DNA from: Patescibacteria group bacterium
GTDB lineage: Bacteria; Patescibacteriota; Patescibacteriia; UBA1558; UBA10009
DNA length: 55,527 nucleotides
NCBI GenBank assembly: GCA_018818425.1
Contig: JAHISB010000043.1
Location: forward strand, 1 to 55,527
Reading direction: 5' to 3'
The notes under the pieces were generated by a model. The model was not told the DNA's origin. It saw only the letters and a list, made by a program, of their open reading frames with translations, and ran no database searches. Positions 40,367 through 55,527 of the stretch are shown one piece after another. Position numbers and translations under genes: made by a program. How positions within the stretch are numbered: the first letter of the stretch is position 1; the number at the start of each line of letters is the position of its first letter.

Positions 40367-40500
40367 AGCATGAGAACATTGGAGCATGGGAGCATGAGAA
40401 CATTGGAGCATGGGAGCATTGGAGCATGGGAGCATTTGATCATATGTTCTAATGCTCTAATGTTCAAGTGTTCCAGTGTTCCCATGCTCCAATGTTCCAT
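40367..40500. repeat. 8-nt GARCAYKR word dyad, locus E
   Basis: Eight forward units (GAACATTG GAGCATGG GAGCATGA ...) meet at GAGCATTTGATC with seven complementary units (TAATGCTC TAATGTTC ... CCATGCTC CAATGTTC). Confidence 0.9.
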
Positions 40501-40511
40501 TGAGTATAATA

Positions 40512-41120: not shown

Positions 41121-41176
41121 GAATAATATATTATTGAACCACGATTTACGAATGACGAATAACGAGTTACAAACCC

Positions 41177-41803: not shown

Positions 41804-41830
41804 TATTGATAATCGGTTAAATCAGCAAGT

Positions 41831-42553
41831 TTATTTGCCTTTTGGTTTTTTGGGCTTTTTAAAGCCGTCGCCGCCCAGCATATTGCCCAATGCCTGGCCG
41901 CCTTCCAAAACTTCGGCGGTAATGCGGCCGGTTATGCGGTTAACATTAACTACGCCCATCTTGCCCGGCACATTAGATCTAAACAAGGTAATGTTGGACT
42001 CAGTAGCATGCTCCTCCTCGCCCTCAACATAATTAATATAAATCATTGGTTTAGGCGGTTTAAAAACAACGGCTAAATCATCAATCTCCTCTGAACCGGC
42101 CTCTACACCTATTAAATAAATATCTTCTGGCAGCTCCACGGTTTGGATAATGTCGTCTTCCAGGCCATAATTTTTATCACCATTGTCGTCAATAAAAATT
42201 ACATATTCCCAAGCAGGCGTAGTCGCATCAAAATAAACGCCATAAGCAATGCTGGACATATCCTGGTCGCTGACTCCGGCCAGAGCCATGGTCTGCGCTT
42301 TTCTGATGTCGCTGGCCACCTGCTCAATGGCCACTCTGAATTCTTCTATGTGCCGGCTTTCCCTTAGCCCCTGGTAGGAAAAAATAAACACCATCATAAA
42401 AATGCTGACCACCACTATAAGCTCGACAAGGGTAAACCCCGCACCAGAAATTGGTGCGCGGGTAAAGCCGGCTGTTTTTTTGAATCTAGCGAAAATTGAG
42501 ATTAACCTAGGGCCGATTTTTTTATCATCAGCCGCTTTTTTTTCTTTAACCAT
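41831..42553 (-). CDS. Prepilin-type protein (FimT/GspH-like position) with long leader
   Basis: GAGFTLVELIVVVSIF preceded by a 38-aa leader containing GFTRAP. Overlaps pilD by 8 nt. Confidence 0.7.
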   Translation of the reverse strand: MVKEKKAADDKKIGPRLISIFARFKKTAGFTRAPISGAGFTLVELIVVVSIFMMVFIFSYQGLRESRHIEEFRVAIEQVASDIRKAQTMALAGVSDQDMSSIAYGVYFDATTPAWEYVIFIDDNGDKNYGLEDDIIQTVELPEDIYLIGVEAGSEEIDDLAVVFKPPKPMIYINYVEGEEEHATESNITLFRSNVPGKMGVVNVNRITGRITAEVLEGGQALGNMLGGDGFKKPKKPKGK

Positions 42554-43313
42554 ATAAAAAACTCCTTGAATACCACTCTAAAATTTGTTGACCAAATAAT
42601 AGAGTGATTAATGTGGCGGCCGATAAAAAAGTGCCGAAAGGAATTTGGCTATGCCATTCTTTTTTTTTGGCCATAATCAAAACCAGGCCGATAATCGAGC
42701 CGCTTATGTAAGCTAAAAATAAAGCAATTAAAGCCTGGGGCCAGCCCAGCATGGCTCCCATAACCAAGCCCAGCCGGACATCGCCCCCGCCGATCCATTT
42801 GCCCTTGGAAAGTACCAGCTGAAAAAAGAAAAAACCCGCCACCAAGATGCTGGCCAGCAATAAGTTGAATAAGGGGTGGCCCAAAAGCAAATTTATCAGC
42901 AAAGCTATAAAAAAGGCGGGCAAGCTGACTTTGTCAACAATCAAGTAGTGCTTTAAGTCGTAAACAAAAATAATAATTAAAAAACAGCTGAAGACCAAAA
43001 AAACTAAAAACTGAAAATTCAAGACTGGAAATTCGTTTTGATACTTTAAATAGCCGAGAATGAATATTAAAGCGGTGGCAAGTTCCACCAAAGGATACTG
43101 CCAGGAAATTTTTTTATGGCAGTAACGGCACTTGGCTCTTAAAAAAATAAAGCTTAAAACAGGAACTAAATCTTTAACCGCTAAAAGATGCCGGCAATGG
43201 GGGCATTTGGACCGTTCGCTGACAATGTTCTCGCCGGATTTTAAACGATAAATAACGGCATTCAAAAAACTGCCGATAATTAAGCCGAAAATAAATAAAA
43301 AAAATAGTATCAT
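42546..43313 (-). CDS. pilD: Prepilin peptidase (A24 family)
   Basis: 255 aa. N-terminal CPHC ... CRYC zinc motif and polytopic A24 domain with the GGGDV aspartate motif. Confidence 0.9.
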   Translation of the reverse strand: MILFFLFIFGLIIGSFLNAVIYRLKSGENIVSERSKCPHCRHLLAVKDLVPVLSFIFLRAKCRYCHKKISWQYPLVELATALIFILGYLKYQNEFPVLNFQFLVFLVFSCFLIIIFVYDLKHYLIVDKVSLPAFFIALLINLLLGHPLFNLLLASILVAGFFFFQLVLSKGKWIGGGDVRLGLVMGAMLGWPQALIALFLAYISGSIIGLVLIMAKKKEWHSQIPFGTFLSAATLITLLFGQQILEWYSRSFLYG

Positions 43314-43355
43314 TGCTTAAATTATACCATTTTTAACCTTTAAAAATCAACAAAA

Positions 43356-43949
43356 TTACTGATCCTTTAAATAACCCAGGCAGATAACACTGCCCCGCTT
43401 AGTCTGTATTCTGCCTGTACCGGCATTATCGCTGCAGTTTAAAGAGCCGATATTGCCGCCGGATGATATACAATCAAGACTGGGGGCATAATTATGAACG
43501 CCATCAATATCGCCGTCTGTATTCCTTTCTTTTTCTAAAACAACAGCCACTAAAAAATTTTCATCTGAATCTTCTAAAAGACCGCCCTGGCCCTCATTAC
43601 TGCTGCAAACAACATAAAAATAACCATCATCATCCTTAGGATCTTTTGGCAAGCCCACAGCTCCCGTGTAAATACTTAGTTCTGCTTCTAATGCCTGCCA
43701 AGTGGGCGTGCTGGCATGAATATTAGGAACATAACCATTGTCTTCCACATAAAGTTCTAAAACATCATTTAATAACTGCGCATCATATATTCTTTTAGCA
43801 TCTCTGGATTTTCTTCTGGAGTCGCCGATATAAACAACGGATATAGCAACAATAATGCCGATAATAGAAATAGTTATCATCAGCTCAATTAAAGTAAACC
43901 CCGCACGGGTAAAGCTCTGCCTTTTTCGGCATTTCTTTCTATTAAACAT
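43356..43949 (-). CDS. Type IV pilin
   Basis: [25 protein letters not shown]-terminus and C-terminal Cys residues. Confidence 0.75.
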   Translation of the reverse strand: MFNRKKCRKRQSFTRAGFTLIELMITISIIGIIVAISVVYIGDSRRKSRDAKRIYDAQLLNDVLELYVEDNGYVPNIHASTPTWQALEAELSIYTGAVGLPKDPKDDDGYFYVVCSSNEGQGGLLEDSDENFLVAVVLEKERNTDGDIDGVHNYAPSLDCISSGGNIGSLNCSDNAGTGRIQTKRGSVICLGYLKDQ

Positions 43950-44000
43950 AAGTTAAATATGGATCATGCCAGTTCAATTTAGAGGGGTCAGACAAATTTA

Positions 44001-44160
44001 TTCACGGATAAATCACCGATAATTCACCGATCTATCACTGATGAATCACGGATGAATCACTGATTGATAATATAACATCTCCGTGATTCATCCGTGGATA
44101 TCCGTGATAGATCCGTGCATCTCCCCGCCAAAGGCGGGCAAGCGTGATTTATCCGTGAGC
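44001..44160. repeat. ATCACGGAT/ATCACCGAT word dyad plus small GC hairpins
   Basis: TTCACGGATAAATCACCGATAATTCACCGATCTATCACTGATGAATCACGGATGAATCACTGAT faces ATCTCCGTGATTCATCCGTGGATATCCGTGATAGATCCGTG. CCCGCCAAAGGCGGG follows. Confidence 0.7.
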
Positions 44161-44263
44161 AATCCCCGGCCAGCTTTGCTAGCGGGGCTGGCAGCGCGTC
44201 ATCTGTCAATAGACTTCAAGTTTATTGAGAAGTGAACTCTCCGTGACCATCAAGCTGCTAGAT

Positions 44264-44881
44264 TTATTGCTCCTGATAAATACAGTAATGGGGGTCGGCG
44301 CAACTCCCAAAAACACCACCGTCTAAAATAAAAAGTTCATTATAATCCAAATAATCACTATTGCCGTTAACGCCAACATTATTGTATGTATTTGTATTGT
44401 CTCTAATTGTTGATCTGAGATCGTCATTATCATTATCAAGCGCGGAATTGTCCCCGTCTTCTAAAACAGCTCCTAAATAGAAACGGCGCGGATTGACCAT
44501 ATTTCTCCAGCCATAAAAATAAATATCGCCGTCTTCCAAATTAGGCGGGAAGGGCAGTTCGTTTAAATAAGGAGCTAAAAGCAATTGCAGATCAGCCCAA
44601 TCAGCTGGCGCAGGATATTGAGAATTTGAATCTTCGCTGGCATAAAGCTCTATGGCTTTGCGCATAATGTCTAAATCGCTGATCCGGCGGGCGTCTCTGG
44701 CCCTGGTTCTGGCGTTAGTTAAGCTGGCCACCACCAAAGTGGATAATAAGCCAATAACGGCAATCACCACTAAAAGTTCAACTATGGTAAAACCCGCACC
44801 TTGAGCGAAACCGAAAGGTGCGCGAGTAAAACCCAGCTGTTGCTTTAAACGCTTTTCCCCGCTTCTAATTTTCTCCCTCAT
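44264..44881 (-). CDS. Type IV pilin with long duplicated-motif leader
   Basis: [30 protein letters not shown]. Confidence 0.8.
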   Translation of the reverse strand: MREKIRSGEKRLKQQLGFTRAPFGFAQGAGFTIVELLVVIAVIGLLSTLVVASLTNARTRARDARRISDLDIMRKAIELYASEDSNSQYPAPADWADLQLLLAPYLNELPFPPNLEDGDIYFYGWRNMVNPRRFYLGAVLEDGDNSALDNDNDDLRSTIRDNTNTYNNVGVNGNSDYLDYNELFILDGGVFGSCADPHYCIYQEQ

Positions 44882-44899
44882 ATTGTTAAAATTACTTAA

Positions 44900-45454
44900 T
44901 TATGCTCCATCAGCATCACAAACGCCAATCTGGCCGCCGCTTTCTATAGCATAAACACCGCTGGCCATAAAACTGCCAACGCCAACCTCTAAATAAAAGC
45001 AAATTTCGTAATCTGCCACCGTAGCGCCGCCTTCGCCTATGGCGTTGCTGATAGAATAATCGCAGGTGAAATCCAGGCCTCCGGTACAGGGCCAGGAATC
45101 ACCGGTATGGCTGGGGTCCTGAAAATAAGAAAACTGCTCTACCAGGCCCGGTCCGCCGCAACTGGTAGTCTTGGTCGCTTCGGCAGTGCAACCCTCTAAA
45201 GGGGCCGGAAAAGTTCCTTCGGTAGCTTCCATTTCTAAGATAGTGGAAAGCTGTTTAACATCAGAAAGACGACGGGCATCTCTGGCTTTGGCTCTGGCGC
45301 TGTTTAAATTAACCATAGCCAGCGAAGAAAGCAGACCGATAATGGCAATCACCACCAAAAGTTCAATAAGAGTAAACCCAGCGCCTTGAGCAAAGCCGAA
45401 AGGTGCTTGGGTAAATCCCGCTCTTTTTTTAAAAATGGGCTTAGCTTTCCTCAT
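44900..45454 (-). CDS. Type IV pilin with long duplicated-motif leader (paralog of 52216..52713)
   Basis: [30 protein letters not shown]. The C-terminal DYEICFYLE motif is shared with the 52216 pilin. Confidence 0.8.
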
Positions 45455-45663
45455 TTATCTATATTATAATAAATCAAAAAATTATTTCTTATAGAGTTAT
45501 TAACAAGTTTTTATATTATACCATTTTTTTAAGGTTTTTACAATTTTTTTCTCAATATAAACAATGGAGTTAAAATTAAATTTGTGTTAAAATTAAACCA
45601 ATATTATAAGTTATCAACGGACCGCTTCGCCGCAGCATGCAATAAATATTTAAATCAAAGTCA

Positions 45664-47313
45664 ATGAAAATAAATAACTCATTCCTCATATCGCTATTAA
45701 TTTTACTAATTTTATTATTCGGTTTCAGTCTTTTTAAAAATATTTCTTATCCTCTTCTCTGGAATGATGAAAGTATAACTGTAATGTTGGGGAAAAGAGT
45801 ATTAAATTATGGTTACCCAAAAGTCCATGATGAAAAAAATATTATTTATCATTTTTTCCCTGATCCAAATTTAGGTGTTTGGAGAAAAATTGATGCTAAT
45901 ATTGATGGCGGATGGACACAATATTATTTCTCAACTATCGGTATTAAACTTTCTGAATTTACAGATGATATCTACTTAAAGACCGCCTTATTAAGAATAC
46001 CCTTTGCTGTCATTGGATTAGCAGGATTAATAATTTTCGCCATTGCTATATCTCAAATCTTCTCTAATAAAAAAGAAAGGATAACTTTCTTTATTTTATT
46101 CTCGATATTTGAACTTTTTTCGATATCGCTTATTCTTCATTTAAGAGAAGTGCGATATTATTCTATAGTGATCTTTCTATATTCCTTATTAATATACCTT
46201 TTTATTAAATTTAATTATCTAAAAAATATTAAGCGTAAAACTTATAATGTTATACTAATATTATTACTATTGCTGTTATTAAACACTTTTTATACTTCTT
46301 TTATTATTTTTATTCTTATACTGCTAATTTATGAAGGGATAAAATTTATAAGAAATATTCTACAAAACAAAAATTATTACACAGAAAGTAAAAAATTATT
46401 ACAAGCTACCTTACCTATATTTATTTCGATACTAATTGCGACCCCCTTTACTATATTTTATAAAATAATTCCTATTCTCAAAGCGCTTTCTGAATTAAAA
46501 CACTTTAACCTATCTACCTATTTTTCACATATTAATACTATTGTAACTTTTTTTTATCAATATGAATTTCTATACCTCGCTTTAATAATAAAGCTTGTTC
46601 TAACGTATCTGTTATTCTTTAAAAAAAAGAAGATATTAATTAATTTCCATAAAATAAAATTATCAAACTTTTTTCTACTATTATTTATTATATATATTTT
46701 ACTAATTGCTAAGATGCCCTATCTCTATGAACGTTATTTCATTTATATTCAACCAATTTTAATAGGTATGATTATTATTGATATTTTTATTCTATATGAA
46801 TTACTTTTAGATAATATTAAAAAAACAAAAAAATATTTTTATCAATTTTTATTTATTCTTATAGTTTTTGGATTAATATTTAAAATTAATATAATATCAG
46901 AACATTTATATGAATTAAATCAACCCTATTATGGACCAGTTGATTATGTTATAAATTATTTAAAAGAAAAATTTGTTAAACCAGAAAATTTAATTATCGC
47001 CACAAACTATGAAGAAACCTCATATATGTATTATTTAGGCAGTAAAGTTATCATTGGCTATGCCAGAGCAAATTTAAAAGAAGATTTAAAAAAACAGCCT
47101 GACATAATAATCTACCGTAAATATAATCCTGGTGACCCAGGAATATTTAATTATTTCTTACAAAATAATAAATATAATAAAATAATTTTTCCTGTCTCTG
47201 ATTACTTTGTAAACAATATGCCCGATACCTGTTGTCATTTATTTAGAACTAAAATGCCGGAAAATAGAAATCAAAATCTCATCATCTTCGTAAAACAAAA
47301 AGAGAGTGATTAA
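45664..47313 (+). CDS. GT-C-fold polytopic membrane glycosyltransferase (ArnT/PMT_2-like), extremely AT-rich
   Basis: 549 aa, about 12 or more TM helices. First-loop WNDES acidic motif and REVRYYS motif. One of only two credible plus-strand genes in the window. Confidence 0.5.
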   Translation: MKINNSFLISLLILLILLFGFSLFKNISYPLLWNDESITVMLGKRVLNYGYPKVHDEKNIIYHFFPDPNLGVWRKIDANIDGGWTQYYFSTIGIKLSEFTDDIYLKTALLRIPFAVIGLAGLIIFAIAISQIFSNKKERITFFILFSIFELFSISLILHLREVRYYSIVIFLYSLLIYLFIKFNYLKNIKRKTYNVILILLLLLLLNTFYTSFIIFILILLIYEGIKFIRNILQNKNYYTESKKLLQATLPIFISILIATPFTIFYKIIPILKALSELKHFNLSTYFSHINTIVTFFYQYEFLYLALIIKLVLTYLLFFKKKKILINFHKIKLSNFFLLLFIIYILLIAKMPYLYERYFIYIQPILIGMIIIDIFILYELLLDNIKKTKKYFYQFLFILIVFGLIFKINIISEHLYELNQPYYGPVDYVINYLKEKFVKPENLIIATNYEETSYMYYLGSKVIIGYARANLKEDLKKQPDIIIYRKYNPGDPGIFNYFLQNNKYNKIIFPVSDYFVNNMPDTCCHLFRTKMPENRNQNLIIFVKQKESD

Positions 47314-47444
47314 CTCTTCAACAATCTTCTTATTTATATTAATAAACTCTTTCTAATAAAAAAATTTTCTGATTTGGTTAAATTTTTATAAAGATTACTA
47401 ATTAATTTTAACATTCTACCAATAATCTAGAGAGTATATCTTAA

Positions 47445-48190
47445 TCAATCTTCTCTTTTAATTAAAGCAATCAAAGAAACTCCCCAAGGGAACTTAAAAA
47501 GCTTTAAAAAATACTTCTCGCTGTTAAAAATATAATAATATATTTTATTTAATAAAGGACAAGGAATGGGCAAAGTATCGGATTTAAGGGAGGGTATTTT
47601 GAACAACTTCCTTAGAGTTCTAAGAAATAGTACTGGTAAAAAAAGCCAAAAATTATAATAGCTTATAAAAGACCATTTAATATCTGCTATTTGACCTGCT
47701 TTAATTAAACTCCTTTTGTTGTATCTCCTATGGTGGTGAAGTATTTCATCGTGAGCTGACCAAAGAAAATTAAAAGCTGGCACAGTAACTAATAAAAGAC
47801 CGTGGGACTTTAAAGAAAAAAATAATTTTTTTAAAAGTAAAGCATCATCATCAACATGCTCTAAAACGTCTGAAAGTAAAATAATATCGTAGCTATCTGG
47901 CTTAGCTTGCCAATGATCGGGATTAATAACTTTTACATTTGTTAGGCCTCGCTTTTTACAAAACTCTATTGCTTTCTCTGAAATGCTTTCTCTGAAACAT
48001 CCACGCCTTCTGCATGAATAACGTTTTTAAAAGAAGCCAACGTTGCTCCGCAACCACAGCCAAAATCAAGAATTTTTGAATCAGTTTTTACATTATCCTT
48101 TAATAAATATTTTATAATAGCTCTCTTGCCTTTAAACCACCAATGCCCATCTTCTGCTTTAAACATATTTTGAAATTCTGAAATATCCAT
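47445..48190 (-). pseudogene. Class I SAM-dependent methyltransferase disrupted by a 14-bp tandem duplication
   Basis: The N-terminal piece carries motif I ILDFGCGCG. TGCTTTCTCTGAAA occurs twice in tandem (47970-47983 and 47984-47997). Deleting one copy joins the two pieces into one open frame of about 244 aa (hand-translated, no further stops). Confidence 0.8.
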
Positions 48191-48222
48191 AAAAATCCCA
48201 TTGTTATAACATTTAAAAATTT

Positions 48223-49737
48223 TTACTGCTGTTTAGTAAAATTAAAAACCTTTATCCGCTCTATCTGGCAAAAATTATCCTGAAGCTGCCAGCCGTTATT
48301 CAAGAACCACTTAAAAACTTTATTATCAGGGTCTAAAATAGGAACGTAAATAGCCTCTACCAGTAAAATATTATCGTAATCTTCCACCGCGCCGGCCATT
48401 TTTTCAACATTATCATTGGTTACTACAGGACCGGCTCCTCTTTGAACCACTCTCTCTGCAAACGATAAGCTGTCATTGATAGGATAAAAACCCTCCACAG
48501 GCAAAGAGCCGGTGTAATATCTTTTAAGCATCATGGCAAAGGCAAAATTATGAACAATAATTTTGGAATCGGGCGAACTTATCTGGTTAATGCATTCATC
48601 CACCCTGGTCCAGTAATTTCTTTCGGTAAAAAAACTGCCATAACCCACTATCAGTGAAAAAATTATTAAAGCCATTAAGCTGGCTTGCATTGCTTTACGA
48701 GCATTCAACCAATTGACTATGCCCTGGCCGATTAATAAATAAGTAAAAACAGAAGCTAAAATTAAATATCTGGGCGTTACCCAATGAGCAACAAAACAAC
48801 CCGCTAATGACGCCAAAACCAAGGCCAAACTATAAACAACAGGAGGACTGAATTTAAATTTAACGCCTAAATCATAATCCCCTTTTATTCTTTTGACAAT
48901 CAAAAAACTGGCTAAAGCAAAAAGCGGCAATAGTGAATAAAATAATTCCAAATAGAAAGCGCTGTTTGTGAGTCTGAAAAAATATTTAAAAATTTCTGTA
49001 AAAAAATGGAAATCATAGGGGACATAAAAAAGATAGGTTGAAAAAACGGCCTCTTTTTTAACCAAGAAAGAAATAATAATATAGCACAATAAAGGAAGAG
49101 CGATAACCGAGTAGCTTAAAAGCCATGCTCTGATGCTTTTTTTTCGCCTAATATAATTAAAGATAATAAAACACGCTTGGGCCAGTATCAAAAAACTGCC
49201 AACTAAATGAGTAAAGGCCAAAAGCAAAGAGCTTAAGATATAACCAATCCAATTAAGCCGAGTTTTATTATCGTTAAAAAGCTGCCAGAAAAACCAGGTA
49301 GACAGCAAGCTTAAAAAAACCAGCAAAGAATAAGGCCTGGCTTCGGTGGTTAAAAAAATCTGATAGGTGGATAAAGTATAGAATATCGCGGCTATAAGCG
49401 CTGTTTTGGCATTAAAAAGTTTCTTACCTATTAAATAAAGCAAGGGGATATTGCCGACCGCAAAAATTATTGACAGCAACCTGGTAACAAATTCCGTTTC
49501 TGCAAAAAATTTATACCAAAACCATAAAATAATGCTGTATAAAGGAACATTAACGTCCTGAATAAGCAAATCCAGCATTCCCTTAAAGGAAAATTTGGTA
49601 AAATTAACCGCATATAATTCATCAAACCAGTAACTGCCTAAAAAATGGCTAAAGAGCAGTCTTAAGCCCAGGCCGGCTAAGGTGAGCAGGGCTACCAGCC
49701 AAAAATATCCTCTGTTTTTAAAAATTTGTTTAATCAT
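48223..49737 (-). CDS. Glycosyltransferase family 39/83-like (ArnT/PMT_2) membrane protein
   Basis: 504 aa. WFDELYA first-loop motif, DVNVPLYSIILWFWYKFF, TEARPYSL. Polytopic. Confidence 0.75.
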   Translation of the reverse strand: MIKQIFKNRGYFWLVALLTLAGLGLRLLFSHFLGSYWFDELYAVNFTKFSFKGMLDLLIQDVNVPLYSIILWFWYKFFAETEFVTRLLSIIFAVGNIPLLYLIGKKLFNAKTALIAAIFYTLSTYQIFLTTEARPYSLLVFLSLLSTWFFWQLFNDNKTRLNWIGYILSSLLLAFTHLVGSFLILAQACFIIFNYIRRKKSIRAWLLSYSVIALPLLCYIIISFLVKKEAVFSTYLFYVPYDFHFFTEIFKYFFRLTNSAFYLELFYSLLPLFALASFLIVKRIKGDYDLGVKFKFSPPVVYSLALVLASLAGCFVAHWVTPRYLILASVFTYLLIGQGIVNWLNARKAMQASLMALIIFSLIVGYGSFFTERNYWTRVDECINQISSPDSKIIVHNFAFAMMLKRYYTGSLPVEGFYPINDSLSFAERVVQRGAGPVVTNDNVEKMAGAVEDYDNILLVEAIYVPILDPDNKVFKWFLNNGWQLQDNFCQIERIKVFNFTKQQ

Positions 49738-51397
49738 TGTTTATAATCTGGTAAATTTTGGTTTTTTTGTCTTCGTAAACCTGCTTAAAAGAATCGCTGG
49801 AGCTTAAGTTGCTTTCCAGCTTAACAAAGCTCTTTTCTACAAAAACATAGTCGGCGTTGAAATTCTCTTTGATTTTCTTGGCTAAATCCTCCTGTTCTTT
49901 GCCGCTGATAATGTTTTCGTACAGCCAATACTTTTCCTGATCTTTTTCATACATAAAGGTATGATCCAGCCCTGTTAAATAATAGTTATGGTCGTTATAA
50001 TAAAATAAAAATGGGAAATCGTCCCAGTCGGAATGAAACACCACGGAATGCTTTGGGGTATTTTGCCTAAGCCACTGCGCCGCTTCTTGATAATGGTTAA
50101 TAGGAAAACCCACCAGCATATCTTTTTTAACCGCTAAAATATCTCGGGGCGCCTGAAATAAAAAAGTCAAGACAAAAATTGACAGCAGAACTCCTAAACA
50201 AGTGGTCTTAAAATTAAAGATTTTTTTTATTTCCTCTTTGGCAAACTGCTTAAGATAACAGTTAAAGCTAAAGGCAAAAAAGATAATGGTTAAAGGTATA
50301 AAGAATTCAATATTTCTGCGGGATTTTAAGGTTAAAAACAAAAGGGCCAATGCCAGCAGGCCCCAAGTTAAAGAGTGAACCGACTGTTTTTTAAAAGTTA
50401 TAACAACCAGGGCCAGCCCCATTATCAGCAAAGCGCAGATTAGGGGGTGGATGGTAATTAAATTAAACGGGCTGTAAGGGTACCATTCGTTGCCCACCCT
50501 GACAATTTCCTGATAGTTGATAATGGCAATCTTGACAATCTGCACCCAGTAAAAATGCAAATTAGCCGGAAAATAAGGGTTGATAACCAGACCGGCAACA
50601 CTGCCGCCCACTGTGGCCGCCAAACCGGCCCAGGGCAAATTCTGATTTTTGAACCCCGCGCCTTGAGAATGCTCTGTAATTTCTGTCACAGGTCTGCGCC
50701 GCTTCTTTCTTACTACAAGATGTAATAACTTCATAAGACAGAGGCGCGGGGTAACTTTCTGCCGCCAAGAACCGGCAAAACTCCGGCTCAATAGCCAACA
50801 AGCTAACCAGTAAAAAACAGTCAGGGCTATCATCATTGGCCAGCCGCCATAAAGCCAGACCGCCAGAAAGGAAATTATAAATAAATCCAGCCATCTTTTT
50901 TTAACCAGAAAATAATAAGCCAGAAGCAGAAAAATTAAAAAAAGCGCCGGCGCTTTGACCAGACTGGCTCTCCACAGCCAGTCCCGGGACACAAATAAAA
51001 CTATAATGTAAAAAAACGGATAAACAACCTTAAAACTTTTAAGCAGCCAGTAAAACGCCAAAACAGCCAAAGAGCCAAAGATGGTAGTGGCGGTTTTTAC
51101 CCCCACCAGCGGATCGTCCAACATCACAAAAGGCACCAGCAATAGGTGGTATAAAAAGTGATGGTCCACAAAATTATTGGCCAGATCGGTTTCCTGAAGC
51201 CACGGCAGTTGATGCAAAACCTGCCCCTCGCTTAAAAACTTGGCGATTTTAGCGTGATAAAACGAATCCGGCTCCGGCAGAGTAAAGGTTCCCTGCAAAG
51301 AAGAAAAAACAACCAGAGCCAAAATAAAAACTATCAGATAATCCAAATTGAATTTTTGGAAAATGCCCCGGAGCGCCGACCAAAGTTTAAACATCAT
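49730..51397 (-). CDS. GT-C membrane glycosyltransferase with STT3/AglB/PglB-like features
   Basis: 555 aa. EPDSFYHAK in the first loop (51254-51274). After the last TM comes AAQWLRQNTPKHSVVFHSDWDDFPFLFYY (SDWDDF at 50015-50032), laid out like the WWDYG region of oligosaccharyltransferases. Overlaps the next gene by 8 nt. Confidence 0.5.
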   Translation of the reverse strand: MMFKLWSALRGIFQKFNLDYLIVFILALVVFSSLQGTFTLPEPDSFYHAKIAKFLSEGQVLHQLPWLQETDLANNFVDHHFLYHLLLVPFVMLDDPLVGVKTATTIFGSLAVLAFYWLLKSFKVVYPFFYIIVLFVSRDWLWRASLVKAPALFLIFLLLAYYFLVKKRWLDLFIISFLAVWLYGGWPMMIALTVFYWLACWLLSRSFAGSWRQKVTPRLCLMKLLHLVVRKKRRRPVTEITEHSQGAGFKNQNLPWAGLAATVGGSVAGLVINPYFPANLHFYWVQIVKIAIINYQEIVRVGNEWYPYSPFNLITIHPLICALLIMGLALVVITFKKQSVHSLTWGLLALALLFLTLKSRRNIEFFIPLTIIFFAFSFNCYLKQFAKEEIKKIFNFKTTCLGVLLSIFVLTFLFQAPRDILAVKKDMLVGFPINHYQEAAQWLRQNTPKHSVVFHSDWDDFPFLFYYNDHNYYLTGLDHTFMYEKDQEKYWLYENIISGKEQEDLAKKIKENFNADYVFVEKSFVKLESNLSSSDSFKQVYEDKKTKIYQIINND

Positions 51398-51534
51398 AGG
51401 GATATTTTACACCATTTTAACAATTAAATAAACGCTAATCTCCACGGCTTCCAAAATATCTGGTATTGACATTATAGAAATAAAAGGTAAAATACCATTA
51501 AACAAGGGTCTTTTGTCCTTGTTTTATTTTATTT

Positions 51535-52122
51535 ATGAAAAAATCATCATATAATCCCCAAATCCATCACCGGCGATCGATTAGATTGCCCAATTATGAT
51601 TATTCGCAACCGGGCTATTATTTTATCACCATTTGCACAAAAAATAGGGATTGTTTACTTGGTGTTACAAAAAATAATAAAATTGAATTATCACCGATTG
51701 GTGAAATTGCTAAACAATGCTGGTTGGATATTCCAAAACATTATCCCCATACACGGTTGGATGAATACATTATAATGCCGAACCATGTTCATGGGATAAT
51801 TTTGGCCGAATTCAACAACGTGGCAGGGGCACACGTAGGGGCAATTCATGAATTGCCCCTACGTGTGCCCCTGCCGCATACCAAAATATTTCGCCGTAGA
51901 ATGTTAATACCAAAAATTATCGGGCGTTTCAAAATGAATTCGGCCAAAATTATCAACCAATTATGCAATACGCAAGGGATTCCGTTTTGGCAACGCAATT
52001 ATTACGAACATATCATCAGAAATAAAGAATCATTATATCGCATCCGTCAATACATTAAAAATAATCCTAAAAATTGGATAAACGACAGCAATAATCCTGA
52101 TAATAAAAAATCGACCAAATAA
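51535..52122 (+). CDS. IS200-like Y1 (HUH) transposase, RAYT-like, second copy
   Basis: 195 aa. HUH motif HVHGII and C-terminal YIKNNPKNW tyrosine helix. Carries a 54-bp perfect palindrome in-frame. Confidence 0.8.
   Translation: MKKSSYNPQIHHRRSIRLPNYDYSQPGYYFITICTKNRDCLLGVTKNNKIELSPIGEIAKQCWLDIPKHYPHTRLDEYIIMPNHVHGIILAEFNNVAGAHVGAIHELPLRVPLPHTKIFRRRMLIPKIIGRFKMNSAKIINQLCNTQGIPFWQRNYYEHIIRNKESLYRIRQYIKNNPKNWINDSNNPDNKKSTK
51822..51875. repeat. Perfect 54-bp palindrome inside the RAYT-like gene
   Basis: GGCAGGGGCACACGTAGGGGCAATTCA|TGAATTGCCCCTACGTGTGCCCCTGCC, checked base by base. It encodes AGAHVGAIHELPLRVPLP. Confidence 0.95.
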
Positions 52123-52154
52123 CGATTTGCCCCGCGCCACAAAATGATGTGGTA

Positions 52155-52185
52155 GAAAAAAGACCCGGCCAAAAGACCGGGTCTT
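52155..52185 (-). terminator. Strong rho-independent terminator downstream of the pilin gene
   Basis: AAGACCCGG (52160-52168) pairs perfectly with CCGGGTCTT (52177-52185), with an 8-nt loop. On the minus strand the stem is followed by TTTTTT. Confidence 0.7.
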
Positions 52186-52215
52186 AACTCTATTATTACG
52201 CAATAAATTTATTCA

Positions 52216-52713
52216 CTAAGGAATAGGTTTAACACACGTACCAATTAAACCGCCTGTTGTTATCGCATGACAACCGTCGCCTAAACTGCCGGAGCCCGAC
52301 TCTAAATAAAAGCAGATTTCGTAATCTTCCACAGTAGCGCCTGCATCGCCATCTTCTTGAGCAATGGAATATTGGCAAGTATTACCGGTACCGCCGGTAC
52401 AATCAAGGCCACAGCCAGTCTCGGGACTGGAAGGATCGAGAAAGCCGTCAAACTGGTCTACCTGGTGGGGGCCAGTGCAACTATTTGTATTAACACCAGC
52501 CGTAGTACAGCCCTCCAAAGCATTAATACCGGTGCCTTCGGTGGCTGCCATTTCTATAATGGTGGAAAGCTGTTTAACATCGGAGAGCCGGCGGGCGTCT
52601 CTAGCTTTTTGCCGGGCATTGTTTAAGCTGACCACGGCCAAAGTTGAAAGCAAGCCGATAATGGCAATTACCACTAAAAGCTCAATTAAAGTAAAACCTT
52701 TTTTATTTCTCAT
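52216..52713 (-). CDS. pilA: Type IV pilin, probable major pilin (short leader)
   Basis: MRNKKG|[24 protein letters not shown]. Four or more Cys in the C-terminal half. It has its own terminator and a 300-bp upstream region. Confidence 0.8.
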   Translation of the reverse strand: MRNKKGFTLIELLVVIAIIGLLSTLAVVSLNNARQKARDARRLSDVKQLSTIIEMAATEGTGINALEGCTTAGVNTNSCTGPHQVDQFDGFLDPSSPETGCGLDCTGGTGNTCQYSIAQEDGDAGATVEDYEICFYLESGSGSLGDGCHAITTGGLIGTCVKPIP

Positions 52714-52990
52714 AATTTCAATTTTTATTTATTTATAAATGATTTTATGCCTCGACCTTTTTGAGGATATATATAAAATTGTGGATAACTTTTCCACACT
52801 AATTCACCTTATATAGTATAACAAAAATTTCTGTATTTGACAATGTTTCAACCGGTTTTCCGCAGATAAATCGCGAGTCGGGAGTCGCGATACCCGCCCA
52901 TGTTCTCACTCTTATTTCATTAAAGGTCGAGCTACGGCGGGGCAAATACGATACCCCTCGACTCGCTACGCTCGCTCGGGGCCTGTCGGC

Positions 52991-53018
52991 AGGATATAGG
53001 ATATAGGATATAGGATTT
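52991..53018. repeat. 7-bp tandem repeat AGGATAT x4 just 3' of pilC
   Basis: AGGATAT AGGATAT AGGATAT AGGATTT, read directly. Confidence 0.85.
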
Positions 53019-53022
53019 GCGA

Positions 53023-54240
53023 CTAAAACTGATTGGCTAAATTATACATTGGCAGAATAATGGCCGCTACCATGCCGCCCACGGCAACGCCTATAAGCAC
53101 CATAATAAACGGTTCAATCAAGCTGGTTAAATTAGCCACCATATTGGTGATTTCTCTGGAGTAAAAAGCGGCCACTTTATCTAAAATATCATCCAAACGG
53201 CCGGTTTTTTCTCCCACGGCCATCATCTGGGAAACCAGCCGAGGCACAATGTCCGATTCTAAAAAAACCACCGCCACCGAGTTGCCGTCTTCCACTTCTT
53301 TAATGGTCCGGTCAATCAAGTCCTGGTAAAGCTGGTTGCCCACCACCTCCGAAACTATTTTCAAGCCGGCTGTTAGGGGAACTCCGCCTCTGACCAAAGT
53401 GGAAAGCGACTGGGTAAAGCGGGTTAAATAGATCATTTTAAAAAGCCTGCCAAAAAGCGGAAACTTTAACTTTAAAATATCAAAAGCTCTTCGGCCCCGG
53501 GGCATTTTAATTAACTGCTTAAAGCCCGCTGCCCCGCCTATAATAATCAGCAGAAAAATCCACCAATAATTTTTTAAAGCATTGCTAACGCCAATTAATA
53601 TTCTGGTAGAAAGCGGCAGGGTTGCGCCCGAAGCTGTTAGCATGCCGGTTAATTGAGGAATCACAAAAATCATCATGACGGTTCCGACTAAAATCAAACC
53701 GCTGATAATAAAAGCCGGGTAAATCATGGCGCCCTTGATTCTGCTGATTAAATCGTAATCCTTTTCTTCTTGATCGGCTAAATATTCTAAAACCTCGTCC
53801 AGCTTGCCCGAGGTCTCGCCGGATTTAATCATGCTGATAAAAAAATTGGAAAAGGCCTTATTGTGCTTGGCTAAAGCCGCCGAGAACTTGGCCCCGCTCT
53901 CAACTTCATCGGCAATATCGGAAACAATTTTTTTTAAAATCGGCTTTTCGGTCTGTTTAACAATAATTTTTAAGGCCTGAACTACCGGCAGGTTAGCGGA
54001 GATCATTACCGCCAATTGCCTGGAAAAAATTACAATGTCTTTCTTGGTGACCTTGTCGAGCCAAGGAAGTTTAAATCCCCCTTTTTTGCCCAAGACCAGC
54101 CTGCCTCTGCCCTGCAGAGTAATCACCGCTAAACCCTTGTCTAATAAAACATCAGCGGCCATTTCATCATTAGGCGCATCAACCACGCCCTTGAATATTT
54201 CTCCCTGATAATTTTTAGCTTTATAATTGAATTGAGGCAT
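53023..54240 (-). CDS. pilC: Type IV pilus platform protein PilC (GspF family)
   Basis: Two T2SSF repeats and three TM segments. I prefer the ATG at 54240; the track start at 54276 is GTG. Confidence 0.9.
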   Translation of the reverse strand: MPQFNYKAKNYQGEIFKGVVDAPNDEMAADVLLDKGLAVITLQGRGRLVLGKKGGFKLPWLDKVTKKDIVIFSRQLAVMISANLPVVQALKIIVKQTEKPILKKIVSDIADEVESGAKFSAALAKHNKAFSNFFISMIKSGETSGKLDEVLEYLADQEEKDYDLISRIKGAMIYPAFIISGLILVGTVMMIFVIPQLTGMLTASGATLPLSTRILIGVSNALKNYWWIFLLIIIGGAAGFKQLIKMPRGRRAFDILKLKFPLFGRLFKMIYLTRFTQSLSTLVRGGVPLTAGLKIVSEVVGNQLYQDLIDRTIKEVEDGNSVAVVFLESDIVPRLVSQMMAVGEKTGRLDDILDKVAAFYSREITNMVANLTSLIEPFIMVLIGVAVGGMVAAIILPMYNLANQF

Positions 54241-54299
54241 ACGAAAATTTATTAAATTGCTAAGTCTATCTCCCACTTTCCAACTTAGTAACTTAGTAA

Positions 54300-55373
54300 C
54301 TATTTATTCAACGCTTCTTTAAAAACTTTAGAATTTTTAGCATGCTTAACGGCCTCTTCGGCGCTAATCTCCCCTTGATGGACCAGCTCTAAAAGCGACC
54401 GTTCCAGACTGATCATTCCTTCGGCTCTGGAAGTTTGGATAATGCTGTCCAGCTGGGCAAAACGGCCCTCTTTAATTAAAGCCTGGCTGGAGGGCGTCTG
54501 GGTTAAAATCTCCACGGCCAGCGCCATGCCTCCGGAAACTTTAGGAATTAATTTTTGAACAATAACGCCCACCAATAATTCAGCTAACACATTTTTGGCC
54601 CACGTTGCCTTTTCGTTAGCAAACTCGCTAACCATGCCGTTAAAAGCCGAGGTTACTGAATCATAATCTAAAATAGCTATCACCAGCCGGCCGGAGTTGC
54701 CTAACTCTAAAAGCGCCTCCAAGCTCTTGGCCGCAGGCACGCGAGACACCGCCACTATATCCACGTCCTCGTCCTTTATTGACTCCAGGCCCTCGGCAAA
54801 GCTGGAAACATCTAAACCCACTTCCCGCTGTTCGATAATGCTTTTGTGGCTGACAAAAAGCTGTTCGATGGGCTCTTCTAAATAAAGGATGTGCTCCGCT
54901 CTGGTTTGGTTGATGTGCTGGATTATCGCCGCCACCGTAGCGCTTCTGCCGGAATTATAAGGTCCGGAAATAAACAAAAAGCCCTTGGTCTGCTGGATAA
55001 AATTATTTATAATCTTGGGCAGGCCCAGCTCGGCTAAGGTTTTGATTTCATTGGAAATTAGTTTTAAAGAAACGCTGAAAAAACCTTTCTGCTGAAAAAT
55101 ATGGACCCTAAAACGGGCTTTGCCCAGCCAATCGTAAACAAATTTCAGCTCTTTTCTTTCTTTAATAAATTCTTTTTTATCTTCGGCAACAAAAAAATTA
55201 ATGATGGCCTCCATAGTCTGGGGGTTGATCAGCCCTTCTTCGGCCAGCGGCAGCAGCTGGTCTTTAACTCTGACATACGGATAGTTGCCGATAACAAAAT
55301 GAATATCTGTCGCTTTTCTTTCTGCGACAGTATTCAAAATTCTATTGATAGTCAAAGTCTCGGTAGTGGACAT
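54300..55373 (-). CDS. pilT: PilT-like hexameric ATPase homolog with degenerate catalytic motifs
   Basis: 357 aa, collinear with PilT. However, Walker A is GPYNSGRS (54942-54965), the Walker B region is DIVAVSRVPA and the His box is AILDYD. Confidence 0.8.
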   Translation of the reverse strand: MSTTETLTINRILNTVAERKATDIHFVIGNYPYVRVKDQLLPLAEEGLINPQTMEAIINFFVAEDKKEFIKERKELKFVYDWLGKARFRVHIFQQKGFFSVSLKLISNEIKTLAELGLPKIINNFIQQTKGFLFISGPYNSGRSATVAAIIQHINQTRAEHILYLEEPIEQLFVSHKSIIEQREVGLDVSSFAEGLESIKDEDVDIVAVSRVPAAKSLEALLELGNSGRLVIAILDYDSVTSAFNGMVSEFANEKATWAKNVLAELLVGVIVQKLIPKVSGGMALAVEILTQTPSSQALIKEGRFAQLDSIIQTSRAEGMISLERSLLELVHQGEISAEEAVKHAKNSKVFKEALNK

Positions 55374-55392
55374 AATAAAAATCTTTGGATAA

Positions 55393-55526
55393 ATCCCGCA
55401 CCTTCCTGCGGGGTATTTGACCCCGCAGGAAGGAATTATTTAATTCCCCTTCATCCCCGCAGCATCATGCCAAAGGCAGATTCGCCTATGGCGAAAGCTG
55501 CGGGGTATTCGGGGAAGGTGCGGGAT
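55393..55526. repeat. About 134-bp nested-hairpin element bounded by 12-bp inverted repeats, upstream of pilT
   Basis: ATCCCGCACCTT (55393-55404) pairs with AAGGTGCGGGAT (55515-55526). Inner perfect 13-bp stem: CCTTCCTGCGGGG (55401-55413) with CCCCGCAGGAAGG (55421-55433). Second stem: CCCCGCAGC (55455-55463) with GCTGCGGGG (55497-55505). The element reaches the window edge. Confidence 0.65.
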
Positions 55527-55527
55527 A

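What the first reader, a model, noticed from the sequence alone, without database searches (positions are those of the whole stretch)
45455..52215. Glycosylation-type island splitting the type IV pilus locus
A roughly 6.7-kb block lies between the pilin genes (ending at 45454) and the probable major pilin (52216). It encodes:
- three polytopic GT-C-fold glycosyltransferases (45664..47313 on the plus strand, 48223..49737, 49730..51397);
- a SAM methyltransferase, currently frameshifted;
- a RAYT-like transposase on the plus strand.

These two plus-strand genes are the only credible ones in 55 kb. The left part is compositionally foreign. Hand counts give 7/60 and 9/60 G+C for lines 46201 and 46741, against 28/60 for line 10621 in atpA.

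There is precedent for GT-C enzymes encoded beside pilA that glycosylate pilin (TfpW in Pseudomonas group IV pilins), and for O-oligosaccharyltransferases such as PilO/TfpO and PglL. By analogy, this may be a pilin or surface-protein glycosylation module acquired horizontally into the pilus locus. If so, it uses three different lipid-linked-donor transferases.
Basis: partly seen in the sequence, partly recalled or inferred. Interest (0 to 1): 0.7.

Follow-up and report, generated by a model that had tools for sequence, protein, structure and literature searches.

The report
Composite glycosyltransferase block in pilus locus
Three membrane sugar-transferase genes do sit inside the type IV pilus locus of this ultra-small (CPR) bacterium, but only one is a recent foreign insertion; the others were inherited with the locus in a small clade, and whether any of them glycosylates the pilus is unproven.

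Summary

The interpretation of one horizontally acquired island does not hold. The block has three layers:
- **Resident operon.** P3 (49730..51397), P2 (48223..49737, PMT_2) and the methyltransferase have near-native to moderately low G+C. They lie at the same place, just after the major pilin gene, in the only four related genomes found (L001/L002, L008, L009). These P3 copies form one clade.
- **Recent insertion.** P1 (45664..47313) has 23.5% G+C and GC3 of 0.19. It belongs to an orphan GT-C family spread across several phyla.
- **Separate insertion.** A RAYT-like gene lies between the pilin gene and P3.

The methyltransferase is inactivated by a 14-bp tandem duplication.

P3 belongs to a Pfam-less, STT3-like family found in at least 482 Patescibacteria species. 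There it normally sits beside PGI in a cluster of GT-C and GT2 genes. None of 80 such loci has pilus machinery nearby.

Pilin glycosylation is therefore possible, by positional analogy with tfpW and tfpO and one parallel case in WOR-1. It is not supported at family level. Interest is moderate.

The parts
54300..55373 (-). PilT-like ATPase (T2SSE) of the type IV pilus locus
   Evidence: Pfam PF00437, E 9.8e-11.
53023..54276 (-). PilC platform protein (T2SSF)
   Evidence: Pfam PF00482, E 6e-60.
52216..52713 (-). Major-pilin-type gene (165 aa)
   Evidence: N_methyl E 3.4e-10. It aligns along its length with the pilins that precede P3 in L001, L008 and L009.
52160..52185 (-). Terminator-like hairpin after the major pilin gene
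   Evidence: 11-pair stem with 7 G-C pairs and a T tail. G+C-rich palindromes followed by T runs lie between the pilin gene and P3 in L001, L008 and L009 (read by eye).
51535..52122 (+). RAYT-like (Y1/HUH) transposase gene, inserted between the pilin gene and P3
   Evidence: Y1_Tnp 28.7 bits, above the cut-off of 23. REP_Tyr_transpos E 5.8e-13, below its cut-off of 80 bits. Absent from this spacer in L001, L008 and L009.
51795..51954 (.). Nested perfect inverted repeats inside the RAYT-like ORF
   Evidence: The inner repeat is a 54-bp palindrome at 51822..51875. The outer repeat has 20-nt arms. The DNA fold is -58 kcal/mol, z = -11.4.
49730..51397 (-). P3: STT3-like GT-C enzyme of a Pfam-less family specific to CPR bacteria
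   Evidence: AlphaFold2 pLDDT 91.2. The top 13 Foldseek hits in the PDB are STT3, AglB or PglB (17 of the top 19), E 9e-11 to 2.5e-6. 482 species carry a relative. G+C is native.
48223..49737 (-). P2: PMT_2-type GT-C enzyme; its start overlaps the P3 stop by 8 nt
   Evidence: PF13231, 39.1 bits. The overlap sequence is ATGATTAA. Only three close homologues were found, at least two of them next to a P3 homologue.
47445..48190 (-). Class I SAM methyltransferase pseudogene
   Evidence: Methyltransf_23 and related hits. The repaired ORF of 243 aa is 62.6% identical to the intact methyltransferase at the same position in L009.
47970..47997 (.). 14-bp tandem duplication (TTTCAGAGAAAGCA, two copies on the minus strand) that causes the frameshift
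45664..47313 (+). P1: GT-C enzyme of a Pfam-less family spread across phyla; a recent A+T-rich insertion
   Evidence: G+C 0.235 and GC3 0.19. AlphaFold2 pLDDT 93.7. Foldseek matches ALG12, ArnT, ALG9, STT3 and PglB. The best homologue is 46% identical, and homologues occur in several phyla.
45455..47444 (.). Largest possible extent of the A+T-rich inserted segment (P1 plus both spacers)
   Evidence: The spacers have G+C 0.21 and 0.18. L009 has the methyltransferase followed directly by a pilin gene, with no P1.
44900..45454 (-). Pilin paralogue (184 aa), 65% identical to the major pilin
42546..44881 (-). Two further pilin genes and the prepilin peptidase
   Evidence: N_methyl hits. A24_N_bact and Peptidase_A24 hits.

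Best explanation
The 6.7-kb block is a composite of three layers, not one island.

**Layer 1: resident operon.** This is P3 (an STT3-like GT-C enzyme), P2 (a PMT_2 GT-C enzyme, translationally coupled to P3) and a SAM methyltransferase.
- It has been between the major pilin gene and the minor pilin and prepilin-peptidase genes since the ancestor of a small Komeilibacteria-like clade.
- It is a relocated piece of a cluster of GT-C and GT2 genes that is widespread in CPR bacteria. That cluster normally lies next to the PGI gene.

**Layer 2: recent insertion.** The A+T-rich P1 gene was later inserted on the opposite strand. P1 is an orphan GT-C enzyme whose family usually travels with GT2, methyltransferase and PMT_2 genes.

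**Layer 3: second insertion and decay.** A RAYT-like gene was inserted between the pilin gene and P3. The methyltransferase was knocked out by a 14-bp duplication.

**Mechanism (inferred from the fold, not shown).** The three enzymes sit in the cytoplasmic membrane. On its outer face they transfer sugars from polyprenyl-phosphate-linked donors to extracytoplasmic acceptors. The donors would be made by GT2 synthases encoded elsewhere in the genome.

**Acceptor (unresolved).**
- P3 resembles the protein-modifying GT-C enzymes STT3 and DPY19, so a protein acceptor is the better guess for it.
- I put about 0.35-0.4 on pilins being among the acceptors in this clade.
- The enzymes are not dedicated to pili at family level.
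For: **Composite structure**
- G+C falls in steps: P3 0.41, P2 0.36, methyltransferase 0.31, P1 0.235, against a genome value of 0.395. GC3 is 0.49, 0.38 and 0.19 for P3, P2 and P1.
- L009 has pilin, P3, P2, methyltransferase, pilin and prepilin peptidase in that order. L008 has pilin, P3, P2 and a methyltransferase-like gene. L001 and L002 have pilin, P3 and pilins. None has P1 or a RAYT-like gene.
- The pilin-linked P3 copies form one clade in a neighbour-joining tree.
- The window methyltransferase is 62.6% identical to that of L009.

**Origin from a GT-C cluster**
- In 80 species, P3 sits after PGI (54 loci). It is followed by GT2 genes (41 loci) and by membrane proteins of about 400-680 aa, including DUF2079.
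- L170-L172 and L111 show the cluster gene by gene.

**Fold**
- The models are confident and match only GT-C enzymes. P2 passes Pfam PMT_2.
- All three keep an acidic motif just after the first transmembrane helix. These are P1 W33-D35-E36 (invariant), P2 F-D-E, and P3 P43-D44 (invariant).

**P1 family**
- It occurs in several phyla, and the best identity to the window protein is 46%.
- Usual neighbours in 82 loci are GT2 (32 loci), PMT_2-type genes (23 loci for each of two query types) and methyltransferases (about 23 loci).
Against: - The window is only 55 kb, so neither a second P3 copy nor the GT2 donor synthases can be located.
- The tree is neighbour-joining with no support values.
- The clade is known from only four short metagenomic contigs besides the window.
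- P1-family genes are on average 5 G+C points below their flanks. Part of the dip is therefore a family trait, though -16 points is near the extreme.
- The broken methyltransferase and the RAYT-like insertion could mean the operon is decaying rather than working.
- No transferase activity has been shown for any member of the P1 or P3 family.
Confidence: 0.7

Rival explanations
1. A glycosylation module dedicated to pilins, inherited vertically in this clade. P3, P2 and later P1 decorate the major pilin and its paralogue with sugars from lipid-linked donors. They would play the role TfpW or TfpO plays in Pseudomonas, for example to block phages or tune adhesion.
For: - P3 lies 82-142 nt after the major pilin gene, on the same strand, in L001, L002, L008 and L009.
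- A further GT-C gene (P1) was added at the same locus.
- In an unrelated phylum (WOR-1, L007) a cassette of GT2, GT2, methyltransferase, a P1 homologue and YfhO lies between the minor pilin genes and the major pilin, PilC and PilB genes.
- tfpW and tfpO lie immediately downstream of pilA.
- P3 is structurally closest to protein-modifying GT-C enzymes.
Against: - The linkage in this clade counts as one evolutionary event.
- At family level there is no enrichment: 0 of 80 P3 loci and 0 of 80 P1 loci have pilus machinery within 10 kb.
- A terminator-like hairpin separates the pilin gene from P3 in the window, and similar palindromes are visible in L001, L008 and L009.
- The window's pilins have no N-x-S/T sequon, and no sequon is conserved among the clade's major pilins.
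- RuvC and YebC are conserved near P3 as often as any glycosylation gene, so conserved gene order in these genomes is weak evidence of shared function.
Confidence: 0.35
2. One reading: a single 6.7-kb glycosylation island acquired horizontally into the pilus locus.
For: - There is a strong G+C dip at 45.5-47.5 kb.
- A transposase-like gene is present.
- L001 lacks P2, the methyltransferase, P1 and the RAYT-like gene.
Against: - P3 has native G+C and GC3. It is present at the same place in all relatives found.
- P2 and the methyltransferase are syntenic orthologues of those in L008 and L009.
- The RAYT-like gene is 4.2 kb from P1, and resident genes lie between them.
- No flanking direct repeats or tRNA genes were found.
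Confidence: 0.05
3. The enzymes build or decorate a non-protein envelope glycoconjugate, such as a lipoglycan or wall polymer. They would resemble the mycobacterial Emb, Aft and PimE enzymes or the GtrB/YfhO systems. Their place in the pilus locus would then be incidental, because the spacer after the major pilin gene tolerates insertions.
For: - The usual context is a large cluster of GT-C genes with GT2 synthases beside sugar-metabolism genes (PGI, GlgA, GH15-like and GH57-like).
- Two unrelated insertions (P1 and the RAYT-like gene) landed in the same locus, which shows it tolerates cargo.
- There is no enrichment of pilus genes at family level.
Against: - The closest structural relatives of P3 act on proteins.
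- The pilin-P3 arrangement is kept across genomes whose P3 copies are only 51-57% identical to the window's.
Confidence: 0.3

Closest known systems
TfpW (Pseudomonas aeruginosa group IV pilin arabinosyltransferase, GT-C) and TfpO/PilO
   Same: A polytopic glycosyltransferase gene lies directly downstream of the major pilin gene. TfpW is a GT-C enzyme with an acidic motif in its first loop.
   Different: - P3 has no TPR domain and no Wzy_C domain.
- No sugar-precursor genes are nearby.
- The P3 family is normally not linked to pilins.
- Sequence similarity to TfpW was not tested.
STT3 / AglB / PglB oligosaccharyltransferases (GT66)
   Same: - P3's model matches them best: TM-score 0.53-0.66, E down to 9e-11.
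- 15 of 70 family members weakly hit TIGR04154 archaeo_STT3.
- D44, E304 and R361 align in register with PglB D54, E316 (the TIxE motif) and R372.
   Different: - No family member hits any Pfam glycosyltransferase family, STT3 included.
- The WWDYG motif is replaced by a conserved S-D-W-D-[DE]-F.
- No second DxD motif was recognised.
- The C-terminal domain is only about 125 aa.
- The profile comparison is not significant (E 0.0035-0.2).
PMT_2 / ArnT-like GT-C enzymes (GT83 and GT39-related)
   Same: P2 passes the Pfam PMT_2 threshold and has the D-E motif after the first transmembrane helix. The P1 model also matches ArnT.
   Different: - P2 gave no Pfam hit other than PMT_2, so no MIR domains as in true protein O-mannosyltransferases.
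- P2 has only three close homologues.
- P1 does not hit PMT_2 at all.
Three-component Gtr-type and GtrB/YfhO glycosylation systems (a GT2 polyprenyl-phosphate sugar synthase, a flippase and a GT-C transferase)
   Same: The usual neighbours of P1 and P3 elsewhere are small GT2 genes plus several GT-C genes. YfhO is among them in L007 and L131.
   Different: No GT2 gene was found in the 55-kb window; flippase genes were not searched for. The clusters in CPR bacteria hold many more GT-C paralogues (up to 5-7) than Gtr systems do.

Membership tests
GT-C fold glycosyltransferase superfamily | Polytopic membrane domain whose fold matches solved GT-C enzymes | tested here: met
   The P3 and P1 models (pLDDT 91.2 and 93.7) match only GT-C structures at E below 1e-3. 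P2 passes Pfam PMT_2. The structure of P2 was not modelled.
GT-C fold glycosyltransferase superfamily | Conserved acidic residue or residues in the first extracytoplasmic loop | tested here: met
   P1 has W33, D35 and E36 invariant in 58 sequences. P3 has P43 and D44 invariant in 70 sequences. P2 has the sequence YWFDELY after the first transmembrane helix.
GT-C fold glycosyltransferase superfamily | Use of a polyprenyl-phosphate-linked sugar donor | not testable with these tools
   Inferred only from the fold and from the GT2 genes that neighbour family members elsewhere.
STT3/AglB/PglB (GT66) - P3 | Overall fold of the catalytic subunit | tested here: met
   The top 13 Foldseek hits are STT3, AglB or PglB, as are 17 of the top 19; the other two are the mannosyltransferase DPY19.
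STT3/AglB/PglB (GT66) - P3 | Sequence-level membership (Pfam STT3 or NCBIfam at the curated cut-off) | tested here: not met
   No Pfam glycosyltransferase hit in 70 members. TIGR04154 scores 24.5 bits against a cut-off of 450. A family profile finds no solved STT3 sequence.
STT3/AglB/PglB (GT66) - P3 | WWDYG motif at the start of the C-terminal domain | tested here: not met
   The family consensus is F-H-S-D-W-D-E-F-P, with W458 invariant and D459 in at least 90% of members. Only the W-D pair is retained. hhalign did not align this region to PglB.
STT3/AglB/PglB (GT66) - P3 | Catalytic Asp in loop 1, the TIxE/SVSE Glu in loop 5, and a conserved Arg after loop 5 | tested here: inconclusive
   D44, E304 and R361 are invariant. 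They align in register with D54, E316 and R372 of a PglB sequence. That sequence was recalled from memory and checked against the PDB. The hhalign E-values are only 0.0035-0.2.
STT3/AglB/PglB (GT66) - P3 | Large C-terminal domain carrying a DK or MI motif | tested here: not met
   The soluble C-terminal part is only about 125 residues, 430-555.
Protein O-mannosyltransferase (GT39) / PMT_2 - P2 | PMT_2 or PMT domain above the curated threshold | tested here: met
   PF13231, 39.1 bits against a cut-off of 26.1.
Protein O-mannosyltransferase (GT39) / PMT_2 - P2 | MIR domains in the luminal loop, as in true PMT enzymes | tested here: not met
   PMT_2 was the only Pfam family hit by P2, so no MIR domain. 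The NCBIfam mannosyltransferase model scores 22 bits against a cut-off of 900.
TfpW-type pilin glycosyltransferase | GT-C gene immediately downstream of the major pilin gene | tested here: met
   Met for P3 in L001, L002, L008 and L009, with spacers of 82-142 nt. In the window the RAYT-like gene intervenes.
TfpW-type pilin glycosylation | C-terminal TPR domain and a linked sugar-precursor pathway | tested here: not met
   No Pfam hit other than PMT_2 for P2, so no TPR, in P1, P2 or P3. No GT2 gene was found in the window.
TfpW-type pilin glycosyltransferase | Pilin is actually glycosylated in a way that depends on the enzyme | not testable with these tools
   This needs mass spectrometry or genetics. 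Pilin glycosylation in CPR bacteria has so far only been predicted (PMC11623550).
TfpO/PilO/PglL O-oligosaccharyltransferases | Wzy_C (O-antigen ligase-like) domain | tested here: not met
   No Pfam hit other than PMT_2 for P2, so no Wzy_C, in any of the three proteins.
REP-associated tyrosine transposase (RAYT) | Y1/HUH transposase domain | tested here: met
   Y1_Tnp is above its cut-off. The motifs H-V-H and Y-Y-E-H are visible. NCBIfam REP_Tyr_transpos scores 49 bits, below its cut-off of 80.
REP-associated tyrosine transposase (RAYT) | Flanking repeated extragenic palindromes, with further copies in the genome | tested here: not met
   The only strong palindromes lie inside the ORF. No second copy occurs in the 55 kb.
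Horizontally acquired genomic island (whole block) | Deviant composition across the block and absence from relatives | tested here: not met
   Only P1 is strongly deviant. P3, P2 and the methyltransferase are present in relatives.

The most novel reading that the evidence does not exclude
P3 could be a minimal STT3-type protein glycosyltransferase. Together with the surrounding cluster of GT-C and GT2 genes, it would form a previously unrecognised surface-protein glycosylation system across CPR bacteria, with filament subunits as its acceptors.
- The acceptors would be type IV pilins in the window's clade. Elsewhere they would be the arrays of PF18895 'T4SS_pilin'-like proteins. These arrays lie within 10 kb of P3 in 37 of 80 species, with three or more copies in 29.
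- The conserved S-D-W-D-[DE]-F motif would then be a variant of WWDYG that reads a different acceptor signal. This would fit the absence of N-x-S/T sequons in the window's pilins.
Probability: 0.2. Interest if true: 0.8.

Novelty: new variant of a known kind. Interest (0 to 1): 0.5.

Why it matters
CPR (Patescibacteria) cells live attached to other microbes. They rely on type IV pili for this, and nothing is known experimentally about how their surface proteins are glycosylated (PMC11623550).

- **Two uncharacterised families.** This locus exposes two large GT-C families that Pfam does not cover.
  - The STT3-like P3 family occurs in at least 482 species.
  - The P1 family is spread across several phyla.
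- **Multi-gene clusters.** These families usually belong to clusters with GT2 synthases.
- **A natural test case.** In this small clade part of that cluster sits directly behind the major pilin gene. That makes 'do CPR bacteria glycosylate their pili, and with what enzyme?' directly testable.

If the enzymes do not act on pilin, the finding is still useful. It would be an example of a pilus locus that accumulates unrelated cargo.

Tried and rejected
- **Direct searches of solved structures.** Sequence searches with P1, P2, P3 and with the P3 family profile found nothing relevant.
- **Pfam scans of whole families.** No glycosyltransferase hit appeared for the 70 P3-family or 58 P1-family members.
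- **Ancestral neighbours in the window.** PGI, RuvC, YebC and GT2 are all absent from the 55 kb. The original locus and the donor synthase could not be placed.
- **Insertion boundaries.** No target-site duplications or other boundary repeats were found around P1 or the RAYT-like gene. Only weak A+T-rich chance repeats appeared. There is no tRNA gene.
- **Sequons.** N-x-S/T sequons in the flanking pilins would support an N-glycosylation reading. The window's pilins have none, and none is conserved among the clade's major pilins.
- **hhalign of the P3 C-terminal domain against the PglB WWDYG region.** No alignment was obtained. By eye, P3 'WD-DFPFLF-YYND' resembles PglB 'WD-YGYPVR-YYSD'. I treat that as a lead only.
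- **Literature.** Searches for STT3, GT-C or DUF2079 in CPR bacteria found nothing relevant.
- **Rejected idea: the methyltransferase arrived with P1.** P1-family genes often have a methyltransferase directly upstream. However, the window's methyltransferase is the orthologue of the one in L009 (62.6% identity against at most 34% to the P1-linked ones).

Full report
**1. Observation**

The window comes from a Patescibacteria (CPR) genome. The nearest relatives by protein identity are labelled Komeilibacteria or 'Patescibacteria group'.

The type IV pilus locus is real.
- PilT-like T2SSE is at 54300..55373 and PilC at 53023..54276.
- A 165-aa pilin is at 52216..52713. Three more pilins are at 44900..45454, 44264..44881 and 43356..43949.
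- The prepilin peptidase is at 42546..43313. Further N_methyl proteins follow, then NAD-dependent DNA ligase.

- P1 and the RAYT-like gene are the only plus-strand ORFs of at least 110 aa that are not shadows of minus-strand genes.
- P1 has G+C 0.235 and GC3 0.19.
- 1650-bp windows elsewhere have mean G+C 0.402, sd 0.028 and minimum 0.329.

**2. What the proteins are**

P2 (48223..49737) passes the Pfam PMT_2 threshold. P1 and P3 hit no Pfam family, and neither do 58 and 70 of their respective homologues.

AlphaFold2 models built on family alignments are confident.
- P3 has pLDDT 91.2 and pTM 0.90.
- P1 has pLDDT 93.7 and pTM 0.93.

Foldseek against the PDB gives only GT-C enzymes at E below 1e-3.
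- For P3, the top 13 hits are the oligosaccharyltransferase catalytic subunits STT3, AglB and PglB, as are 17 of the top 19 (E 9e-11 to 2.5e-6, TM-score 0.53-0.66). The other two are DPY19. ALG12, ArnT, AftD, ALG9 and AftA follow.
- For P1, the hits are ALG12, ArnT, ALG9, STT3 and PglB, with TM-score about 0.5.

All three proteins carry the acidic motif after the first transmembrane helix that is typical of GT-C enzymes.

The methyltransferase is a class I SAM enzyme. It is interrupted by a 14-bp tandem duplication at 47970..47997. Deleting one copy restores a 243-aa ORF.

The RAYT-like protein passes Pfam Y1_Tnp but not the NCBIfam RAYT cut-off.

**3. P3 is STT3-like but not a canonical STT3**

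- 15 of 70 family members weakly hit TIGR04154 archaeo_STT3. The best E is 1e-7, far below the curated cut-off.
- I recalled a C. jejuni PglB sequence and checked it against the PDB. It matches C. lari PglB at E 2e-265.
- hhalign of the P3 family against that sequence gives weak alignments (E 0.0035 to 0.2). They are in register: D44 with D54, E304 with E316 of the TIxE motif, and R361 with R372.
- The WWDYG motif is replaced by a conserved S-D-W-D-[DE]-F.
- I recognised no second DxD motif.
- The C-terminal domain is only about 125 residues.

P3 therefore has an STT3-like fold, but membership of GT66 is not established.

**4. The block is composite**

Closest relatives:
- L009 carries PilB, a response regulator, PilT, PilC, pilin, P3, P2, an intact methyltransferase, pilin and prepilin peptidase, in that order.
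- L008 carries pilin, P3, P2 and a methyltransferase-like gene.
- L001 and L002 carry PilC, pilin, P3, pilins, prepilin peptidase and, further on, DNA ligase.
- None of them has P1 or a RAYT-like gene.

Orthology and relatedness:
- The window's methyltransferase is 62.6% identical over its full length to that of L009. It is at most 34% identical to methyltransferases linked to P1 homologues.
- P2 is 55% and 47% identical to its counterparts in L008 and L009. It is at most 34% identical to other PMT_2 proteins.
- In a neighbour-joining tree the pilin-linked P3 copies form one clade. Its sister is a Komeilibacteria-like clade whose P3 genes lie beside PGI.

Operon structure and composition:
- P3 and P2 overlap by 8 nt (ATGATTAA), which indicates one operon.
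- Composition falls in steps from P3 (native) through P2 and the methyltransferase to P1.

My reading is that P3, P2 and the methyltransferase are resident and vertically inherited within this clade. P1 and the RAYT-like gene are two later, separate insertions.

**5. Where these families normally live**

P3 family:
- A scan of one genome per species found P3 relatives in 482 species, all Patescibacteria by their gene content and neighbours.
- In the best 80 loci, none has PilC, PilT or prepilin peptidase within 10 kb. One has a pilin-motif ORF 9.6 kb away.
- The usual order is RuvC, YebC, PGI and P3. These are followed by GT2 genes, several membrane proteins of 400-680 aa including DUF2079, and sometimes a methyltransferase.
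- L170-L172 and L111 show such clusters gene by gene, including PMT_2 and GT87 members. L111 also holds a P1 homologue.

P1 family:
- P1 relatives occur in WOR-1, Omnitrophota, Bacteroidota, Syntrophales and several CPR lineages. The best identity to the window protein is 46%.
- The 80 metagenomic loci, together with L006 and L007, carry GT2 (32 loci), PMT_2-type genes (23 loci for each of two query types) and methyltransferases (about 23 loci, often directly upstream).
- None of the 80 metagenomic loci has PilB or PilC.

The exception is L007 from WOR-1. There a cassette of GT2, GT2, methyltransferase, an unknown gene, a P1 homologue and YfhO lies between the minor pilin genes and the major pilin, PilC and PilB genes.

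**6. Does it glycosylate pilin?**

For:
- The pilin-P3 arrangement is kept across genomes whose P3 copies are only 51-57% identical to the window's.
- A second GT-C gene was added at the same place.
- L007 is an independent parallel.
- tfpW and tfpO lie directly downstream of pilA.
- P3 resembles protein-modifying GT-C enzymes.

Against:
- The clade counts as one event, and there is no enrichment at family level.
- RuvC and YebC are conserved near P3 as often as any glycosylation gene. Conserved gene order in these genomes is therefore weak evidence of shared function.
- A terminator-like hairpin follows the major pilin gene in the window. Similar palindromes are visible in L001, L008 and L009.
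- The window's pilins have no N-x-S/T sequon.
- No GT2 gene is in the window.
- The methyltransferase is broken, and the RAYT-like gene separates P3 from the pilin gene.

I put about 0.35-0.4 on pilins being among the acceptors.

**7. A further lead**

ORFs resembling PF18895 'T4SS_pilin' lie within 10 kb of P3 in 37 of 80 species, with three or more copies in 29. Where genes were called, they lie on the same strand as a DUF2079 membrane protein. GT-C-type membrane proteins next to filament-subunit genes may therefore be a wider theme in CPR bacteria. This could equally be plain conserved gene order.

**8. Verdict**

- The block is a composite: a resident GT-C and methyltransferase operon plus two insertions in a pilus locus.
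- It includes two uncharacterised GT-C families, one of them STT3-like.
- It is a new variant of a known kind, and interest is moderate.

Noticed in passing
window 51795..51954 (inside the RAYT-like ORF 51535..52122); L015 6245..6400: The RAYT-like coding sequence holds nested perfect inverted repeats. The inner one is a 54-bp palindrome at 51822..51875, and the outer one has 20-nt arms. The DNA fold is -58 kcal/mol, z = -11.4. They fall in and around the segment between the two profile-matching halves of the protein. The 39%-identical homologue in L015 has nested hairpins of a different sequence at about the same place, z = -7.6. No extragenic copy exists in the window.
   Followed up: partly
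window 47970..47997: The methyltransferase frameshift is an exact 14-bp tandem duplication (TTTCAGAGAAAGCA, two copies on the minus strand). It is probably a very recent mutation, or a variant within the population captured by the assembly.
   Followed up: yes
window 45350..45454, 44780..44881, 42420..42553, 43880..43949 (5' ends of four pilin genes, minus strand): Three pilins (44900, 44264 and 41831) have long leaders with a duplicated cleavage-type motif: G-F-T-[QR]-A-P, then G-A-G-F-T-[LI]-[IV]-E. A shorter form is in 43356. The spacer DNA between the two copies can form a hairpin whose stem sequence differs between paralogues (CGCACCA/TGGTGCG against GCACCTT/AAGGTGC). The major pilin lacks this feature.
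   Followed up: no
L010-L089 (for example L013, L015, L076), L003 13653..19739, L172 10283..11744: Arrays of up to about 12 small PF18895 'T4SS_pilin'-like genes lie within 10 kb of the P3 gene in 37 of 80 species. Where genes were called (L003, L172), they are on the same strand as a DUF2079 membrane protein.
   Followed up: partly
L111 5556..17676: This is a nine-gene, same-strand cluster in another CPR genome: a P3 homologue, a 420-aa unknown, PMT_2, a P1 homologue, GT2, PMT_2, a GT87-like gene, GT2 and a 539-aa unknown. It is flanked by UvrC, and no pilin-motif ORFs or pilus machinery genes were detected in the locus.
   Followed up: partly
L007 (WOR-1 / Saganbacteria-type contig) 1..17662: In a non-CPR phylum, a cassette of GT2, a AAA_14/DUF4143 gene, GT2, methyltransferase, an unknown gene, a P1 homologue and YfhO lies between the minor pilin genes and the major pilin, PilC, histidine kinase, PilB and response regulator genes. 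A 23S_rRNA_IVP gene is also nearby.
   Followed up: no
window 1..55527: All credible genes except P1 and the RAYT-like gene are on the minus strand across the 55 kb. G+C skew is negative in nearly every window, so the cumulative skew falls almost steadily. No tRNA gene was found.
   Followed up: no
L010, L019, L025, L026, L046, L050, L051, L053 and others: Several third-party-annotated MAG records are titled 'uncultured Gammaproteobacteria bacterium'. They carry the CPR-specific P3 gene with typical Patescibacteria neighbours, so the organism labels look wrong.
   Followed up: no
window 52216..52713 and 44900..45454: The block is bracketed by two paralogous pilin genes of the major type, 65% identical over 156 aa. 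L009 has the same two-paralogue arrangement around P3, P2 and the methyltransferase.
   Followed up: partly
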